Part shown: positions 111 through 8,038 of the stretch, piece by piece
Layout of the letters: each line of letters opens with the position of its first letter
How positions within the stretch are numbered: position 1 is the first letter of the stretch
IMG/VR virus record: IMGVR_UViG_3300015182_000005
Reading direction: 5' to 3' (one strand)
DNA: 9,822 bases
DNA from: a virus
Lineage: Duplodnaviria; Heunggongvirae; Uroviricota; Caudoviricetes
The notes under the pieces: generated by a model
Seen by the model: only the letters and a program-made list of their open reading frames with translations
What the model was told of the DNA's origin: nothing
The model's database searches: none
Position numbers and translations under genes: made by a program

Positions 111-140
111 GCGTCAATACGGTGCTCCGTTGACGCTTAC
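111..140. repeat. Putative IS66-type terminal inverted repeat (right end), with an internal 9-bp palindrome AAGCGTCAA / TTGACGCTT
   Basis: GCGTCAATACGGTGCTCCGTTGACGCTTAC; outer end is 5'-GTAAGCG on the complementary strand. Exact inner boundary of the repeat cannot be set without the other IS end. Confidence 0.55.
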
Positions 141-3100
141 CCTGACCCCAAGAGAGCCGTCCGCTGCCCGTGTCAGTGGCATGATTGCTTCAGGCCCGGC
201 CTCGCCCATCAACCCGGCCCCCTTCGCAAAAGCAAAATACGTCGGTGTATCCACAATAGTGTTACTGTAAGCACTCAGATTTGCCGATGTGTAAACACCA
301 CCTTTTGCGTTTGCCACTGCCCCCGAAATCCATCCGCCGACCGTACCAAGCCACCCTCCGGCACCGGAGAGTGATTTCAGTCCGTTAACAATGGCTGCAT
401 TCATCAGAATTTTTGAAACTTCCCGGAGAACTGAACTCCCCCAGTTCCTCCAGTCCACAACATTTCCGGCCAGTGCATCGGAAATATTTGATACCAGCCC
501 GTCCATAGTGGAAACGACAGCATCTGCCGCCTGCGAAGCATAATCGGTGGCACTGTCTGCCCAGTTGGTCAGCCCCTCCTGGAGTCCTGCATTCCAGTTA
601 TTACGTAAAGCATCGGCCTTTGCATAATAATCCTGCTGATCGCTGAGACGCTCTTCCAGATATTTTTTATTCAGTTCTTTCTCCTGTTTCCACAGGGCTT
701 CTTCAATTTCTCCGGCCTGATACTGTCTCAGCAGCTCGTTATTTTTCTGCTCAAACTCATGCCGGATACTCCACATTTCCTGGAGTCGTTCACGCATCCG
801 TGAGCCTTCACCATATCCCAGTAACTGCGCGTCGTTAGACGCCCGGGTACTGGCATTACTGTCCGCCAGGCTGCTTTCATACGCAGCAAGCTGCTCACGA
901 ATCTTTTTCTGGTCGATGAGTGCTGCATTCTGCAAAAGCGTTTTTTTCTGCGCTTCTGACAGGGTTGATAATTCGCCCTGACTGACCTGATATTTCATCT
1001 TAGCCAGTTCAGTATTCTGCCCTGCCAGTGCTATCTGTTCTTTTTGCTGTTTAATCAGCCGTTTATAAATATCTTCTGTTTTTTCCGCTTCGGTCTTTTT
1101 ATGCGCTTTGGGTTTATTTGCCTGGTTATTTCGCCAGGCATCCAGTGAGTTATTGATATAATTCTGTCTGGCTGTCTGATACGCCTCTCCCACAAAGCCA
1201 AGATCATCCGCAGCATAGCCCAGTCGAGCACGCTCACGCGCTTCCCCCTTAAGGCGGGACAGAGCCAGTTCGCGCTTGCTGTTATTCAGTGCGGTCTGCT
1301 GTTTATCATCCAGGGTTGCCTGTGGTAGCCGTAACGGTACATTCACCAACCCCTGTCGCTGCTGAAGTAATTCATTACCAAGCCCAAGAAGGCGATTAAA
1401 CTCGGTATGCTGCCCATTCATGATCAACAGGGACTGATACGCTTTGTTTTGTTCCGCCGCCTGTTGACGGATCAACGCAACCCGCCGCTCCTCCAGCCCG
1501 GCAAGCACATCCTGAATGGATTGCGCTTTGCCCTGCATTTGTGTGAGACGGGACTGTTCAACTGCCAGTTGATTTGTTGCTTCTGCAAGCCCTTCTGTGA
1601 CTGTTTTTACCGACGTCATGTGGTTAATCATAAAACCGTTATCGGTTGTCCAGCCCGGGTTTGCCAGCACATACTGATAGCCAGCAATTTTTTCCTGTAA
1701 GGATTTAATCTTACTTTTCTGCTCGTCAATTAACCTGTTTTGCTCATCAAGTGCCTGCCGCGTCTTTTCCTCATTATCTGACGCTTCAGGAAGCGACATT
1801 GCCGACGTTTTCTGGCGAATTTCGTCGATTGTTGCGGCATACTGGCGTGCAGATTCTCTGGCCTGCTCCTGATTCTGATACATCGTGTACCAGGCCGTCG
1901 CCCCCAGCATGACGAGTCCCGGCACACCACCAACCAGCCCCAGCGCACCACTTAACAGACGACTCCCCACTGACGTGACAGTATTCAGCGTTGTCTGCGC
2001 CGCTGTTCTGGCCGCAATATTACGGGTAAGTGACGCCTGAGCAGCTGTCAGCTTCGCTTCTGCTGCGGCCTGCCTTTCGGTACCGCGAGCAGCAACAACC
2101 GCCTGTTGCGCACGATAAACCGCCGCACGCGCTCTGGCGGTTGCTATCTGTGTCCCCCGAAGTTGCGCTTCAGCAAGAGCCACTTCGTTTCTGGCTGCAG
2201 TAATTAATCCGGCAGTTGCAGATCCAGCAGACGACGCCATATTGCCAAAATATCGGGCTACCCCGACGGCAACCAGTGCGCCAGCTGCAGCAGCCACGGT
2301 ATCAATATTGTCTGCAACACCATTCAGCACACCGGAGAGTGTCTTTGTCACTCCGCTTGCCTCGTTCGCACCACCAACCCAGGCCATAAAGGCGTTTTCA
2401 ACTTTGGTTGCAGAGGATGAAACAGTATCAGGCATTGCTGCATATTCATCACGCAACGCCCCAAGCTGACTAATCAGTGCAGGAACAACCTTATCGGCGG
2501 TCAGTTTTCCGTTATCCGCCATGGCCTTCAGATCCTTACGGGCAACCCCCATTCCCGCAGCCAGCGCACGAATAACACGATCGCCGTTCTCATTCACCGA
2601 GTTAAACTCTTCACCGCGCAGCACTCCCTGCGCCAGTGCCTGACTGAACTGCATGATCACCGAACTGGCTTCTGCTGTACTGGCACCGGATAATTTCAGG
2701 CCCGTGGAGATCGCCTCGGTGACTTTCAGTACCTCCTCAGAACTGTAACCATACTCCCGCATGGAAGCTGCAGAACGGGCAAAAAGGCTGGCGTTATCAG
2801 AAAACGCCGTCCCCGTTCTCTGGCTGATCGCCATTAATTCACGCTGTGATGCCTGAAAATCATCACTGGACTGTGAGGCCTGCTTCAGACGGGCATTTAC
2901 TGAATTCCACTCATCGGCGAGAGAAATAAGATGACCGGTAGCAAAAGCCCCGGCAAATGCCCCCGCCATATTCAGTGCCGAAGATTTAGCTGTATTTATC
3001 TGATCCGTCACTTCTGCCAGTGCACGCCGCATTTCACGGGAGGCAGCAGCAGACTGTTGGCCTCCGTTCTGCATGGTGCGGTAGTAATCCTGCCCCATAC

Positions 3101-3185
3101 GCGAAGCCCGGGAGATCTCTGACTGGAATGACCGGGAGTTTGCCGAGATTTTAATAATCAGTTCACGTAATGTCGCCACACTCAT
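114..3185 (-). CDS. Tail tape measure protein (lambda gpH-like), 1023 aa as it stands; the last 8 codons and the stop are IS-derived, so the native C-terminus is probably missing
   Basis: Long ORF directly downstream of the G/GT chaperone pair. Ala/Gln-rich coiled-coil middle section, hydrophobic glycine-rich segments, and a C-terminal region (NWADSATDYASQ ... GEAGPEAIMPL) resembling the lambda H C-terminal region. Codons 140..117 (VSVNGAPY) and the TGA at 116..114 lie inside the IS terminus. Confidence 0.88.
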   Translation of the reverse strand: MSVATLRELIIKISANSRSFQSEISRASRMGQDYYRTMQNGGQQSAAASREMRRALAEVTDQINTAKSSALNMAGAFAGAFATGHLISLADEWNSVNARLKQASQSSDDFQASQRELMAISQRTGTAFSDNASLFARSAASMREYGYSSEEVLKVTEAISTGLKLSGASTAEASSVIMQFSQALAQGVLRGEEFNSVNENGDRVIRALAAGMGVARKDLKAMADNGKLTADKVVPALISQLGALRDEYAAMPDTVSSSATKVENAFMAWVGGANEASGVTKTLSGVLNGVADNIDTVAAAAGALVAVGVARYFGNMASSAGSATAGLITAARNEVALAEAQLRGTQIATARARAAVYRAQQAVVAARGTERQAAAEAKLTAAQASLTRNIAARTAAQTTLNTVTSVGSRLLSGALGLVGGVPGLVMLGATAWYTMYQNQEQARESARQYAATIDEIRQKTSAMSLPEASDNEEKTRQALDEQNRLIDEQKSKIKSLQEKIAGYQYVLANPGWTTDNGFMINHMTSVKTVTEGLAEATNQLAVEQSRLTQMQGKAQSIQDVLAGLEERRVALIRQQAAEQNKAYQSLLIMNGQHTEFNRLLGLGNELLQQRQGLVNVPLRLPQATLDDKQQTALNNSKRELALSRLKGEARERARLGYAADDLGFVGEAYQTARQNYINNSLDAWRNNQANKPKAHKKTEAEKTEDIYKRLIKQQKEQIALAGQNTELAKMKYQVSQGELSTLSEAQKKTLLQNAALIDQKKIREQLAAYESSLADSNASTRASNDAQLLGYGEGSRMRERLQEMWSIRHEFEQKNNELLRQYQAGEIEEALWKQEKELNKKYLEERLSDQQDYYAKADALRNNWNAGLQEGLTNWADSATDYASQAADAVVSTMDGLVSNISDALAGNVVDWRNWGSSVLREVSKILMNAAIVNGLKSLSGAGGWLGTVGGWISGAVANAKGGVYTSANLSAYSNTIVDTPTYFAFAKGAGLMGEAGPEAIMPLTRAADGSLGVRVSVNGAPY

Positions 3186-3195
3186 TCTCCGGACG

Positions 3196-3217
3196 AAAAA
3201 AAACCGCCGAAGCGGTT
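3196..3217 (-). terminator. Intrinsic-terminator-like hairpin plus U8 between GT and the tape measure gene
   Basis: Minus-strand RNA AACCGCUUCGGCGGUU followed by UUUUUUUU (A-run at + 3196-3203), then CGUCCGGAGA and the ATG at 3185. Confidence 0.55.
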
Positions 3218-3225
3218 ATGTTGAC

Positions 3226-3914
3226 TCACTGAGACACTATTAAAAGCGCGTTTTCCAGTCCGGCAAATGGATCTGAAGCGCCTTCTGTCTGCTCCTTCTC
3301 CCACTGAAGAAGCGCATCATTCAGTGACACTTTGACCCCCTGCGCACCGTAAATAGCTGAAACAATCTGGGCAGCCCGGAAATCAGCCCGTTCGTCCCCC
3401 AGCGGGCTGAACCTGTCAAATTCTGCCCACATCATGATTTCTGATGCGGACATTTCCCGGCGTAACTCTGACAATGTGCGCCCCATCCTGAGCGCCAGCA
3501 TCATCAGAAAACGCATCCCCGGAAGCGCTACTTTTTTTTAACCTCGCCGGCATCACTGATCAGTTCCAGAGACTGCCGAAGAAGCCGCGCATGCACCGGG
3601 CCATACACGGCAATCACCTGTTCACGATCATCCTCTGAAAATACGGGTTGCAGTCCGGTATCACACAGAACATCAATGAACAGTTCAACATCTGCCTCCA
3701 GATTTCGGCGGGCGCGCTCCGCAACGGATAACGGTGTCTCATCATCTTTTGCTTTAACGATCTCCTGCCAGCGCAACCAGGCTTCTGCAGAAGGTTCCCG
3801 TAACACAACCGTTGCTCCCTCCCATTCAGGCACATCAACGGTTTTATGGCGAAACCCCGACATCGTTGCCAGTGCCAGATTACGGATATTTTTAGTCATC
3901 ACATCCATCCTCAT
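3226..3914 (-). CDS. Tail assembly chaperone GT-like fusion made by -1 programmed frameshift (G frame 3914..3531, then -1 frame 3537..3226)
   Basis: G ORF ends ...GEVKKK-stop on the run GTT AAA AAA AAG TAG. The -1 frame is open from 3537 and continues (VALPGMRFLMM...) to TGA at 3226. Position directly upstream of the tape measure gene matches the conserved G/GT arrangement. Confidence 0.7.
3528..3914 (-). CDS. Tail assembly chaperone (lambda gpG-like), 128 aa
   Basis: ORF between the major tail gene and the tape measure gene. Start ATG overlaps the major tail stop (TAATG); an alternative start at 3899 has GAGG 9 nt upstream. Ends in the slippery A-run. Confidence 0.75.
   Translation of the reverse strand: MRMDVMTKNIRNLALATMSGFRHKTVDVPEWEGATVVLREPSAEAWLRWQEIVKAKDDETPLSVAERARRNLEADVELFIDVLCDTGLQPVFSEDDREQVIAVYGPVHARLLRQSLELISDAGEVKKK
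3531..3537 (-). promoter_or_regulatory. -1 ribosomal frameshift slippery heptamer A AAA AAG (the dnaX-type site)
   Basis: Minus strand 3537..3531 = AAAAAAG in the X XXY YYZ register of the G frame, 1 codon before the G stop. The -1 frame downstream is open for more than 100 codons. Confidence 0.65.
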
Positions 3915-4618
3915 TAACTGACGGTTACAGTGCAGGAAGTGGAGGTCACTTTGTTAACCGGGCTCGCTGAATCAGAAATCTCGCAGGTATACGCACCGGC
4001 ATCACCGGATGCTGCTGATGCCTTACTGAACGTTGCCGCCGTCTGTCCGGAAACAGGAGAACCACCTTTTTTCCAGGCATAAGAATAAGGCGGCACACCA
4101 CCCACAGCCTCAACCGCCATTTCAAGTTTCGCTCCGGAAGCAACCCGCAGCGTGCTTTTTAAATCGACCTTCACTTTCAGCTGCTCTGTCGTCAGCACAG
4201 GCTTACCTTTCAGGCGCAGAGAAAACGTTGCAGCCACAACACCATTGGTTCCTGCAGACCAGGTATGCTGACGCACCTCTGCCATAAAGGTAAATCCGTT
4301 GCCTGACGGAAAAATAACTTTAAAGCCATACGTGGTGTCATTGTCATAGGCACTGCGCAACGCGTTCTGGGCAGCATTCAGATAAAAGTTGCCTGACATG
4401 GAAATCTCTGAAGCAGCCCCAAGACCGTTAATATTTTCCTGCTCAACAGAATACAGCGTGGTGACATCAATATCCTGCTTTTGTCCTGCGGTAAACTGCA
4501 CCTCTTTGATTGTACAGCTCAGGCCAAGATAGCTGGCAGAATCCAGGGTTTCTGCTGTTACCGGTGCAGACGAAATCATAATTTTCGTCAGTTGCGAACG
4601 CTCAAAATTAGAGGACAT
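3914..4618 (-). CDS. Major tail protein with C-terminal Ig-like domain, 234 aa
   Basis: Position immediately upstream of the chaperone pair. AGGAG 6 nt before the ATG. C-terminal ~85 aa (GGVPPYSYAWKKGGSPVSGQTAATF...GAYTCEISDSASPV...CTVTVS) has the pattern of phage Ig-like domains. Confidence 0.8.
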   Translation of the reverse strand: MSSNFERSQLTKIMISSAPVTAETLDSASYLGLSCTIKEVQFTAGQKQDIDVTTLYSVEQENINGLGAASEISMSGNFYLNAAQNALRSAYDNDTTYGFKVIFPSGNGFTFMAEVRQHTWSAGTNGVVAATFSLRLKGKPVLTTEQLKVKVDLKSTLRVASGAKLEMAVEAVGGVPPYSYAWKKGGSPVSGQTAATFSKASAASGDAGAYTCEISDSASPVNKVTSTSCTVTVS

Positions 4619-7438: not shown

Positions 7439-8038
7439 TTATGCATTAAGAAGGGTCAAAAGGCGCTCACGCGCCATTCGTTCATTAACAGCTTTCTTCA
7501 GCGCACCACTCGCCCGCGCTTCCTGCCAGGCTTTCATTGAGCGGACACCGGAGTCTGCGTCCTGATAGGCCGGATATGTCACCGGGCTGACGTCATACAG
7601 ACGAGAAATGCGCGTGATTTCCCGGATAACAATCCCCTCGTCGTCTTCATACCAGCTCTCTCCGTCACTGGCGACACGAAACGCGAACGAGGACTGGTTA
7701 ATGTCACCACGCAACATTGGAGACAGCACCAGGTCACAAATAGTCGGAGTATCCGGTGCAACAATGTCATAACGTAAACCGCGTTCATCCACCGACAATG
7801 ACAATGTGCCGGCAGAACTTCGTCCGAGAATGAAATTAGGATCATGATTAAACAAGCCACGTACATCATCATTCAGTACATCATCAAAAGCCCCCGGCTT
7901 GATGATTTCACGAAATCCCCACAGAGGTTCTGAACGACTGTTAAATACCGAGCCATACCCCAGAATGTGGGTCGGGGCATTATCATATTGTTCCGCCCGC
8001 ACCTCCCCGCTGTAACAGCGCGTTTCACGATCATTCAT
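7439..8038 (-). CDS. Prohead maturation protease (HK97 family), 199 aa
   Basis: Position between portal and capsid. Motifs GYGSVFN, LFNHD (His) and INQSSFAF (Ser) are consistent with the HK97 prohead protease family. Start overlaps the portal stop by 8 nt. Confidence 0.82.
   Translation of the reverse strand: MNDRETRCYSGEVRAEQYDNAPTHILGYGSVFNSRSEPLWGFREIIKPGAFDDVLNDDVRGLFNHDPNFILGRSSAGTLSLSVDERGLRYDIVAPDTPTICDLVLSPMLRGDINQSSFAFRVASDGESWYEDDEGIVIREITRISRLYDVSPVTYPAYQDADSGVRSMKAWQEARASGALKKAVNERMARERLLTLLNA

What the first reader, a model, noticed from the sequence alone, without database searches (positions are those of the whole stretch)
3226..3914. Programmed -1 frameshift at A AAA AAG producing a G/GT-type chaperone fusion
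The chaperone ORF ends GTT AAA AAA AAG TAG. The heptamer A AAA AAG is the same slippery sequence used by E. coli dnaX, and the -1 frame opens exactly there and runs 104 codons to 3226. The ORF track shows these as two separate ORFs, with the second starting at an internal Met, which understates the -1-frame segment. The G/GT frameshift upstream of the tape measure gene is a conserved feature of long-tailed phages.
Basis: partly seen in the sequence, partly recalled or inferred. Interest (0 to 1): 0.5.

Follow-up and report, generated by a model that had tools for sequence, protein, structure and literature searches.

The report
Phage tail chaperone G/GT frameshift site
This is the ordinary, well-known -1 ribosomal frameshift that lets lambda/HK97-like phages make a small amount of a fused "GT" tail-assembly chaperone next to the tape-measure gene; it is real here but not new.

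Summary
On the minus strand, the tail assembly chaperone gene ends GTT AAA AAA AAG TAG (3542-3528). The heptamer A AAA AAG (3537-3531) is in the X XXY YYZ register. The -1 frame is closed by TAA at 3540-3538, then stays open for 103 sense codons to the stop at 3228-3226.

The conceptual fusion matches Pfam Phage_TAC_1 (lambda gpG family, 5.7e-58) followed by Phage_tail_T (lambda gpT, 6.6e-19), and a PHROG family over nearly its full length. It lies between the major tail gene and the tape measure gene.

In 110 IMG/VR contigs of this type, 106 keep A8-G-TAG. In the 80 related loci analysed, the window-type ones that keep A8/A9 all have the -1 frame open. More distant relatives (Stx phage, Morganella, Klebsiella, HK97-like, lambda) all keep an A AAG Lys slip codon at the same place. 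The residues V-A-x-P-G, which lie upstream of any conserved ATG, are kept through synonymous changes.

The homologous O157-prophage cassette (AGA AAA AAG TAG) gave 7% frameshifting in E. coli (Antonov 2013). No dnaX-like stimulators were found.

Corrections: G most likely starts at 3899, giving G 123 aa and GT 224 aa. Databases annotate two separate CDSs. Interest is low and the feature is already known.

The parts
3528..3899 (-). Gene G: tail assembly chaperone, 123 aa plus TAG stop. An alternative in-frame ATG at 3914 would give 128 aa.
   Evidence: ORF. Pfam PF06222 Phage_TAC_1 5.7e-58 over the full profile. PDB 2ob9 'Tail assembly chaperone' 4.6e-49. RefSeq and GenBank start at MTKN. SD and start conservation.
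3531..3537 (-). Slippery heptamer A AAA AAG in X XXY YYZ register. It covers the last two sense codons of G.
   Evidence: Retained in 106 of 110 IMG/VR contigs of this type. Also present in Stx phage 1717 and Morganella phage IME1369_02.
3532..3539 (-). Run of eight A. This homopolymer contains the heptamer and is a possible substrate for transcriptional or replication slippage.
   Evidence: A7 variants in 4 IMG/VR contigs. A9 in-frame variants in Logan contigs.
3528..3530 (-). Zero-frame stop TAG, immediately 3' of the slip codon AAG.
   Evidence: The stop is adjacent to AAG in the window type, Stx type, Morganella (TAG) and Klebsiella (TAA) relatives.
3538..3540 (-). TAA in the -1 frame. It closes that frame up to the slip site, so the shift must occur within 3537-3531.
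   Evidence: the -1 frame opens at -7 relative to the G stop.
3226..3531 (-). T segment in the -1 frame: 101 codons, VALPGMRFLMM...LLIVSQ, plus TGA. It is expressed as the C-terminal part of GT, join(3899..3531, 3531..3226), giving 224 aa.
   Evidence: Pfam PF06223 Phage_tail_T 6.6e-19 and PHROG 337 and 14766. Frame open in the A8/A9 window-type loci checked.
3914..4618 (-). Major tail (tube) protein with a C-terminal Ig-like domain, immediately upstream of G.
   Evidence: Pfam Ig_2 4.9e-8, with sub-threshold hits to lambda-like TTP families. Annotated as major tail subunit.
114..3185 (-). Tape measure protein gene, immediately downstream of T. RefSeq starts it at GTG 3179.
   Evidence: Pfam Phage_HK97_TLTM 4.4e-93, TMP_3 4.1e-58, Tape_meas_lam_C 1.7e-13. 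Annotation.
3202..3217 (-). Terminator-like GC hairpin (AACCGCTTCGGCGGTT followed by a T run) in the 40-nt gap between the T stop and the tape measure start.
   Evidence: HK544 carries an annotated rho-independent terminator at the equivalent place.

Best explanation
This is the G/GT tail-assembly-chaperone recoding site of an E. coli HK97-head/lambda-tail type prophage.

Most ribosomes translate G (3899-3531) and terminate at TAG 3530-3528, which yields the 123-aa chaperone. A small percentage slip one base backwards on A AAA AAG. The single E. coli tRNA-Lys (mnm5s2UUU) leaves AAG and re-pairs with the overlapping AAA. This can happen as a tandem P/A-site slip, or as a P-site slip while the slow-to-decode TAG sits in the A site. 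Translation then continues with GTA GCG CTT... and produces a 224-aa G-T fusion.

By homology with lambda, the shared G part binds the tape measure protein encoded just downstream. The T part recruits the major tail protein encoded just upstream. The fixed G:GT ratio set by the slip frequency is what tail assembly needs, and neither protein ends up in the virion.

Shown here: the sequence anatomy, homology of both halves, conservation of the slip codon and of the -1 frame, and the absence of dnaX-type stimulators. Shown in the literature for a homologous cassette: about 7% frameshifting in E. coli. Inferred: the efficiency in this allele, which of the two slip modes operates, and the protein interactions.
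For: Anatomy.

Homology: PF06222 5.7e-58 plus PF06223 6.6e-19 on the conceptual fusion, between the tail tube gene and a tape measure gene with PF06120, PF20155 and PF09718. PHROG 14766 matches the fusion over nearly its full length at 1.6e-91. PDB 2ob9 'Tail assembly chaperone' 4.6e-49.

Conservation: 106 of 110 IMG/VR contigs of this type keep A8-G-TAG. The window-type loci that keep A8/A9 have the -1 frame open for 103 codons even where the flanks changed (GEVKKK versus EVIKKK). Stx phage 1717 (AGA AAA AAG TAG) and Morganella IME1369_02 (GAA AAA AAG TAG) share the heptamer plus stop at 63-68% nucleotide identity. Klebsiella phage 1 LV-2017 keeps only GCA AAG TAA. HK544-type has CGG GAA AAG and lambda has G GGA AAG.

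Translation across the junction: the -1-frame codons between the slip site and the conserved FLM vary synonymously. Pro is CCG/CCC/CCT, Gly is GGG/GGT/GGC and Val is GTA/GTC. The ATG at 3516 is replaced by ATT, ATA or GTA in relatives.

Annotation: HK544 is annotated 'programmed frameshift'.

Experiment in the literature: PMC3711429 Table S2 lists a Phage_TAC cassette identical to the phage 1717 junction that gave 7% +/- 0.79 in an E. coli GST-MBP reporter.

Shiftiness of A_AAG and A_AAA_AAG with the sole tRNA-Lys, and the lambda G/GT function: review PMC5009743.
Against: There is no direct protein evidence for this allele. RefSeq and GenBank annotate T as a separate CDS starting at ATG 3504 or 3516. 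The heptamer alone is not statistically unusual. No 3' structure was found at a stimulatory distance: the fold z-score is -1.25, and the only conserved hairpin starts about 35 nt downstream, is invariant, and has an unfavourable covariation term. The upstream GAGG lies 4 nt from the heptamer and is not conserved. Efficiency is therefore probably only a few percent. The A8 run means transcriptional slippage could produce the identical protein.
Confidence: 0.88

Rival explanations
1. G and T are two independent genes, as in current RefSeq and GenBank annotation. T would be initiated at ATG 3516 or 3504, and no fusion would be made or needed.
For: ATGs exist at 3516, 3504 and 3501. The FLM methionine (3504) is conserved in all relatives except lambda. 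PGAP and the phage records call T as a separate CDS.
Against: ATG 3516 becomes ATT, ATA or GTA in relatives. GGGG abuts ATG 3516, and GGGGA lies about 11 nt from ATG 3504, so the SD context is poor. The five codons upstream (V-A-x-P-G) are conserved with synonymous changes, which implies that they are translated. Lambda's T frame has no Met at this point and is made only as GT (PMC5009743). The homologous cassette does frameshift at 7%. PHROG 14766 matches the whole fusion.
Confidence: 0.04
2. The fusion arises mainly from transcriptional slippage. RNA polymerase adds one A in the A8 run, giving an mRNA with A9 in which G and T are in frame. The protein (…VKKKVALPG…) is identical to the ribosomal -1 product.
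For: The A8 homopolymer. Runs of more than seven A are cited as transcriptional realignment sites in PMC3711429. The A9 DNA variant encodes exactly the predicted 224-aa fusion and was called as a gene on 8 Logan contigs.
Against: Relatives with the same architecture have only A6 (Stx phage 1717, measured at 7%), A7 (Morganella) or A3 (Klebsiella GCA AAG TAA). The conserved element is therefore the in-register A AAG, not homopolymer length. HK544 and lambda use GAA AAG and GGA AAG. Slippage would also delete As and give non-productive products.
Confidence: 0.07
3. The juxtaposition is a decaying or chance feature: a prophage remnant in which T is a pseudogene fragment and the heptamer is coincidental.
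For: The heptamer frequency is not above chance. A7 variants that break the frame relation exist.
Against: The locus is identical to induced phage isolates and is present in 903 of 5426 complete E. coli genomes with intact flanking morphogenesis genes. The T frame is open and conserved in the relatives examined that keep the usual A-run. Pfam matches are strong.
Confidence: 0.01

Closest known systems
Bacteriophage lambda G / G-T (-1 frameshift at G GGA AAG; Levin, Hendrix & Casjens 1993; Xu, Hendrix & Duda 2004, 2013, 2014, as cited in PMC5009743)
   Same: It belongs to the same Pfam families for both halves (PF06222, PF06223). The position is the same, between the major tail gene V and the tape measure gene H. 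The shift is -1 in the same direction near the 3' end of G, and the same A AAG Lys slip codon sits in the A-site position.
   Different: The P-site codon is AAA instead of GGA. The G stop is immediately adjacent to the heptamer, whereas in lambda it lies 5 codons downstream. The G/T overlap is 7 nt rather than tens of nt. T is shorter, about 101 aa against about 144 aa in lambda. G is only 20% identical to lambda G.
HK97-type tail assembly chaperone pair (HK544 gp12/gp11 'programmed frameshift'; PDB 2ob9 tail assembly chaperone)
   Same: This is the closest characterised family. G is 59% identical to HK544 G, and 2ob9 matches at 4.6e-49 over residues 1-125. The head and tail gene order is the same.
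   Different: The HK544 type has CGG GAA AAG followed by six more G codons, and its -1 frame opens 49 nt before the stop. The window has A AAA AAG abutting TAG. HK544 also has an extra small gene (gp15-like) between T and the tape measure gene. That 2ob9 comes from HK97 itself is my recollection and was not tested.
E. coli O157 / Stx-phage 'Phage_TAC' frameshift cluster (Antonov et al. 2013, PMC3711429)
   Same: It has the same heptamer plus TAG (AGA AAA AAG TAG) at the homologous position. G is 67% identical to the window's G. It was measured at 7% -1 frameshifting in E. coli.
   Different: It is a different allele: the G-T region is about 68% identical at nucleotide level, it has A6 rather than A8, and the flanking codons differ. 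The window's own sequence was not the one tested.
E. coli dnaX gamma/tau frameshift signal
   Same: It uses the same heptamer, A AAA AAG, read by the same tRNA-Lys (PMC5009743).
   Different: dnaX has a 5' SD-like element about 10 nt upstream and a 3' stem-loop a few nt downstream, and shifts at about 50% (PMC3711429). Here the GAGG is 4 nt upstream and not conserved, and no structure lies within about 30 nt downstream. The outcome is also opposite: dnaX truncates the protein, whereas here the shift extends it.

Membership tests
Lambda-type G/GT tail assembly chaperone frameshift (Xu, Hendrix & Duda 2004) | Two consecutive ORFs lying between the major tail gene and the tape measure gene | tested here: met
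   On the minus strand: major tail 4618-3914, G 3899-3528, T frame 3537-3226, TMP 3185-114. Pfam assignments; annotations.
Lambda-type G/GT tail assembly chaperone frameshift (Xu, Hendrix & Duda 2004) | The second ORF is in the -1 frame relative to the first and overlaps its 3' end | tested here: met
   The -1 frame opens 7 nt before the G stop and runs 103 sense codons. The other (+1) frame is open for 47 codons.
Lambda-type G/GT tail assembly chaperone frameshift (Xu, Hendrix & Duda 2004) | A slippery sequence in the correct register inside the overlap | tested here: met
   A AAA AAG at 3537-3531 with X at codon position 3. It is the only in-register heptamer found in the overlap.
Lambda-type G/GT tail assembly chaperone frameshift (Xu, Hendrix & Duda 2004) | Sequence homology to gpG and gpT | tested here: met
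   PF06222 at 194.7 bits (cut-off 25) and PF06223 at 68.6 bits (cut-off 25.9).
Lambda-type G/GT tail assembly chaperone frameshift (Xu, Hendrix & Duda 2004) | The arrangement (slip site and open -1 frame) is conserved in relatives | tested here: met
   106 of 110 contigs keep A8-G-TAG. More distant relatives keep A AAG at the same position and an open -1 frame.
Lambda-type G/GT tail assembly chaperone frameshift (Xu, Hendrix & Duda 2004) | The downstream ORF has no independent translation start | tested here: inconclusive
   ATGs exist at 3516 and 3504. ATG 3516 is not conserved, and ATG 3504 is conserved but has poor SD context. Codons upstream of both are conserved as coding. Some internal initiation cannot be excluded.
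Lambda-type G/GT tail assembly chaperone frameshift (Xu, Hendrix & Duda 2004) | G and GT are produced at a fixed low ratio, both are required for tail assembly, and both are absent from virions | not testable with these tools
   Only indirect evidence: 7% for the homologous Stx-type cassette (PMC3711429), and about 30:1 in lambda (PMC5009743).
dnaX-type tripartite -1 frameshift signal | Heptamer A AAA AAG | tested here: met
dnaX-type tripartite -1 frameshift signal | SD-like stimulator about 10 nt 5' of the heptamer | tested here: not met
   The only SD-like element, GAGG at 3545-3542, lies 4 nt upstream and is absent in the L047, Stx, Morganella and Klebsiella relatives.
dnaX-type tripartite -1 frameshift signal | Stable stem-loop a few nt 3' of the heptamer | tested here: not met
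   Fold z-score -1.25. The consensus hairpin core starts about 35 nt downstream, has no covariation in that core, and its covariation term is +1.25.

The most novel reading that the evidence does not exclude
In this HK97-like chaperone subfamily, the conserved element may not be the heptamer. It may instead be 'A AAG immediately followed by the G stop codon'. That motif is seen in the window type, Stx type, Morganella, and in Klebsiella phage 1 LV-2017, which has no heptamer at all (GCA AAG TAA). This would point to a termination-pause-driven P-site slip, in which competition with release factor (RF1 at TAG) sets the G:GT ratio. In the window allele, the A8 run would add a transcriptional-slippage or mutable-homopolymer component, consistent with the A7 and A9 variants seen in assemblies.
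Probability: 0.25. Interest if true: 0.3.

Novelty: already known. Interest (0 to 1): 0.1.

Why it matters
The main value is annotation quality. This allele is present in about 900 of 5426 complete E. coli genomes and in several induced phage isolates. In the records inspected it is annotated as two separate CDSs ('phage tail assembly chaperone' plus 'phage tail assembly protein T' or 'DUF4035'), so the real 224-aa GT product is missing from the protein sets derived from them. Biologically it adds one more well-supported member to a textbook case of recoding and raises no open question. The only mildly interesting angle is mechanistic: stop-adjacent A AAG against the tandem heptamer, and the A8 homopolymer.

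Tried and rejected
1. Downstream stimulatory RNA structure. I folded 3545-3440 (z = -1.25) and folded an alignment of six diverged junctions. The only shared hairpin core lies about 35 nt downstream, sits in the conserved LALRMGR coding stretch and does not covary, so I rejected it as a stimulator.

2. Upstream SD-like stimulator. The GAGG lies 4 nt from the heptamer and is not conserved. Rejected.

3. Statistical rarity of the heptamer. It is not significant on its own.

4. NCBIfam scan of the fusion found no family. This is uninformative.

5. I tried to read Xu et al. 2004 for the list of slip sites, but the paper is not held. Statements about it rest on the reviews that cite it and on my own knowledge.

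6. In-frame A9 'natural fusions'. Eight Logan contigs call the exact 224-aa fusion as one gene. Three of the five retrieved have further 1-nt gaps and no mismatches against the window, and truncated tape measure calls. I therefore treat them as probable homopolymer assembly errors, not as evidence of natural fusion.

7. A second AAAAAAG at 4072-4066 inside the major tail gene starts at codon position 1, so it is not an in-register A AAA AAG. I did not pursue it.

Full report
**Context.** The window carries, on its minus strand, a phage morphogenesis operon:
- terminase (partial), portal (9257-8031), prohead protease (8038-7439), major capsid (7424-6207), and head-tail connectors
- an HK97-gp10-like protein (5469-5020) and a gp17-type tail completion protein (5023-4679)
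- a major tail protein with a C-terminal Ig-like domain (4618-3914)
- the two ORFs of the finding, then a 1023-aa tape measure protein (3185-114)

The 901-nt region around the finding is 100% identical to induced E. coli phages (vB_EcoS-733R4, -640R1 and others). It is also found in prophages in 903 of 5426 complete E. coli genomes.

**Observation.** The minus strand reads ...GGC GAG GTT AAA AAA AAG TAG CGC TTC..., with AAG at 3533-3531 and TAG at 3530-3528. The heptamer A AAA AAG (3537-3531) is in the X XXY YYZ register. The -1 frame carries TAA at 3540-3538, directly before the heptamer. It then reads AAA AAA GTA GCG CTT CCG GGG ATG CGT... without a stop until TGA at 3228-3226, which is 103 sense codons.

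The heptamer alone is not rarer than chance: 3 are found against 1.86 expected. The case rests on register, position and homology.

One correction concerns the G start, which is most likely ATG 3899 rather than 3914:
- An SD-like GAGGA lies 8 nt upstream of 3899.
- In the L047 group the 3914 ATG is lost, while an AAGGAGG 9 nt upstream of the 3899-equivalent ATG is kept.
- The Pfam profile, PDB 2ob9 and RefSeq all begin at MTKN.

So G is 123 aa and GT is 224 aa.

**What it is.** The conceptual fusion matches Pfam Phage_TAC_1 (the lambda gpG family) over the whole profile at 5.7e-58. Residues 156-224 match Phage_tail_T (lambda gpT) at 6.6e-19, and both scores are far above the curated cut-offs. 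PHROG 14766 matches residues 6-225, profile positions 1-220 of 224, at 1.6e-91. The G part matches the solved 'Tail assembly chaperone' 2ob9 at 4.6e-49. The related phage HK544 carries an annotated joined CDS, 'programmed frameshift', at the equivalent place. This allele, in contrast, is annotated as two separate CDSs in GenBank phage records and in RefSeq.

**Comparative test.** Among 80 IMG/VR loci retrieved with a G/GT alignment, the window-type loci keep GTT/ATT AAA AAA AAG TAG and an open 103-codon -1 frame, even where the flanks have diverged (GEVKKK against EVIKKK). There were three exceptions:
- Two loci have A7, which puts T in the +1 frame.
- One locus has A9-TAG, which gives A AAA AAA.

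A pattern scan found 110 IMG/VR contigs of this type, of which 106 have A8 and 4 have A7.

More distant relatives (63-68% nucleotide identity) show the following slip sites:

| Relative | Sequence at the slip site |
|---|---|
| Stx2 phage 1717 | AGA AAA AAG TAG |
| Morganella phage IME1369_02 | GAA AAA AAG TAG |
| Klebsiella phage 1 LV-2017 | GCA AAG TAA (tetramer only) |
| HK544 / SaltyDalty | CGG GAA AAG plus six codons |
| Lambda | G GGA AAG plus five codons |

The common denominator is an in-register A AAG Lys codon at the end of G, with the T frame open from there.

The -1-frame codons between the slip site and the first conserved Met (FLM) vary synonymously: Val is GTA/GTC, Pro is CCG/CCC/CCT and Gly is GGG/GGT/GGC. 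The ATG at 3516 is ATT, ATA or GTA in relatives. These codons are therefore translated, and they can only be reached from the G frame.

**Experimental precedent.** Antonov et al. 2013 (PMC3711429) predicted a 'Phage_TAC' cluster of 41 frameshifted genes similar to an HK97 protein, and tested two cassettes in an E. coli GST-MBP reporter. [quoted passage not shown] This is identical to the phage 1717 junction retrieved here, and it gave 7% +/- 0.79 (searches compared). The review PMC5009743 summarises three relevant points:
- A_AAG and A_AAA_AAG are highly shift-prone in E. coli because one tRNA-Lys (mnm5s2U34) reads both AAA and AAG.
- Slow-to-decode A-site codons favour slippage.
- Lambda G:GT is about 30:1. 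G binds the tape measure protein and the T domain binds the major tail protein.

**Mechanism.** I found no dnaX-like stimulators. The region 3' of the site folds no better than shuffles (z = -1.25). The only hairpin shared among relatives has its core about 35 nt downstream, in the invariant LALRMGR coding stretch, without covariation in that core. The GAGG 4 nt upstream is not conserved. A low efficiency of a few percent is therefore expected, as in lambda and in the tested Stx-type cassette.

Two ribosomal modes give the same protein:
- a tandem P/A slip on A AAA AAG
- a P-site slip of tRNA-Lys from AAG to AAA while TAG waits in the A site

The Klebsiella relative has A AAG plus a stop but no heptamer, which shows that the second mode is sufficient in at least one member of the family.

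Transcriptional slippage on A8 (+1 A) would also give the identical protein. It may contribute in this allele, but it cannot be the conserved mechanism, because relatives have only A6, A7 or A3.

**Rivals.** Independent initiation of T, which is what current annotation implies, is contradicted by four results: the coding conservation upstream of the ATGs, the non-conservation of ATG 3516, the lambda paradigm and the reporter result. Chance or decay is contradicted by the conservation data and by the existence of induced phage isolates.

**Comparison and novelty.** This is a member of the lambda/HK97 G-GT family on every sequence-level criterion that could be tested. The only criterion left inconclusive is the absence of an independent T start. 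The stoichiometry and the requirement for tail assembly cannot be tested here. It resembles dnaX only in the heptamer. The phenomenon, the family and even this slip-site type (A AAA AAG TAG in the HK97-like TAC cluster) are already described and measured, so the finding is correct but not new. Its practical value is as an annotation fix: join(3899..3531, 3531..3226) on the minus strand.

**Verdict.** The kind is already known and interest is about 0.1.

Noticed in passing
window 3532-3539 (-); L035, L045, L149, L205 (A7); L091-L095 (A9); L051 (A9 followed by TAG): The length of the A run at the slip site varies between records. 106 of 110 IMG/VR contigs have A8. Four have A7, where G runs on for about 40 aa in another frame and T falls in the +1 frame. 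Eight Logan contigs have A9, where G and T are fused in frame and encode exactly the predicted 224-aa GT. Several A9 contigs carry other 1-nt gaps, so homopolymer sequencing error is likely, but true slippage mutants are not excluded.
   Followed up: partly
window 3202-3217 (-): A terminator-like hairpin (AACCGCTTCGGCGGTT plus a T run) lies in the short gap between the T stop and the tape measure start, inside the late operon. HK544 has an annotated rho-independent terminator at the equivalent position. It may lower tape measure expression relative to the upstream tail genes, or be read through under antitermination.
   Followed up: no
L004 1834-2175 (E. coli Z1323CEC0005); L005 1304-1492 (HK544): Some relatives carry an extra small ORF between T and the tape measure gene: a 113-aa hypothetical protein in strain Z1323CEC0005 and a gp15-like protein in HK544. 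In L004 the C-terminal roughly 25 residues of T are also replaced. This marks a mosaic or moron insertion point right after the conserved part of T.
   Followed up: no
window 4066-4072 (-): A second AAAAAAG lies inside the Ig-like domain of the major tail gene (TGG AAA AAA GGT, WKKG). It starts at codon position 1, so it is a G AAA AAA context rather than A AAA AAG. The -1 frame there stops after about 16 codons. It is probably incidental.
   Followed up: no
window 3179-3185 (-) and 3899-3914 (-): The mechanical ORF list and the curated annotation disagree on two start codons. For the tape measure gene it is ATG 3185 against RefSeq's GTG 3179, with GGAGAA at 3190-3185 favouring 3179. For G it is ATG 3914 against 3899.
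   Followed up: partly
window 7439-8038 (-) versus L001 1964-2562: The prohead protease is one intact 199-aa ORF in the window. In the otherwise near-identical phage record ON470612 it is annotated as two CDSs (165 nt and 417 nt). This may be an annotation or sequencing artefact in that record.
   Followed up: no
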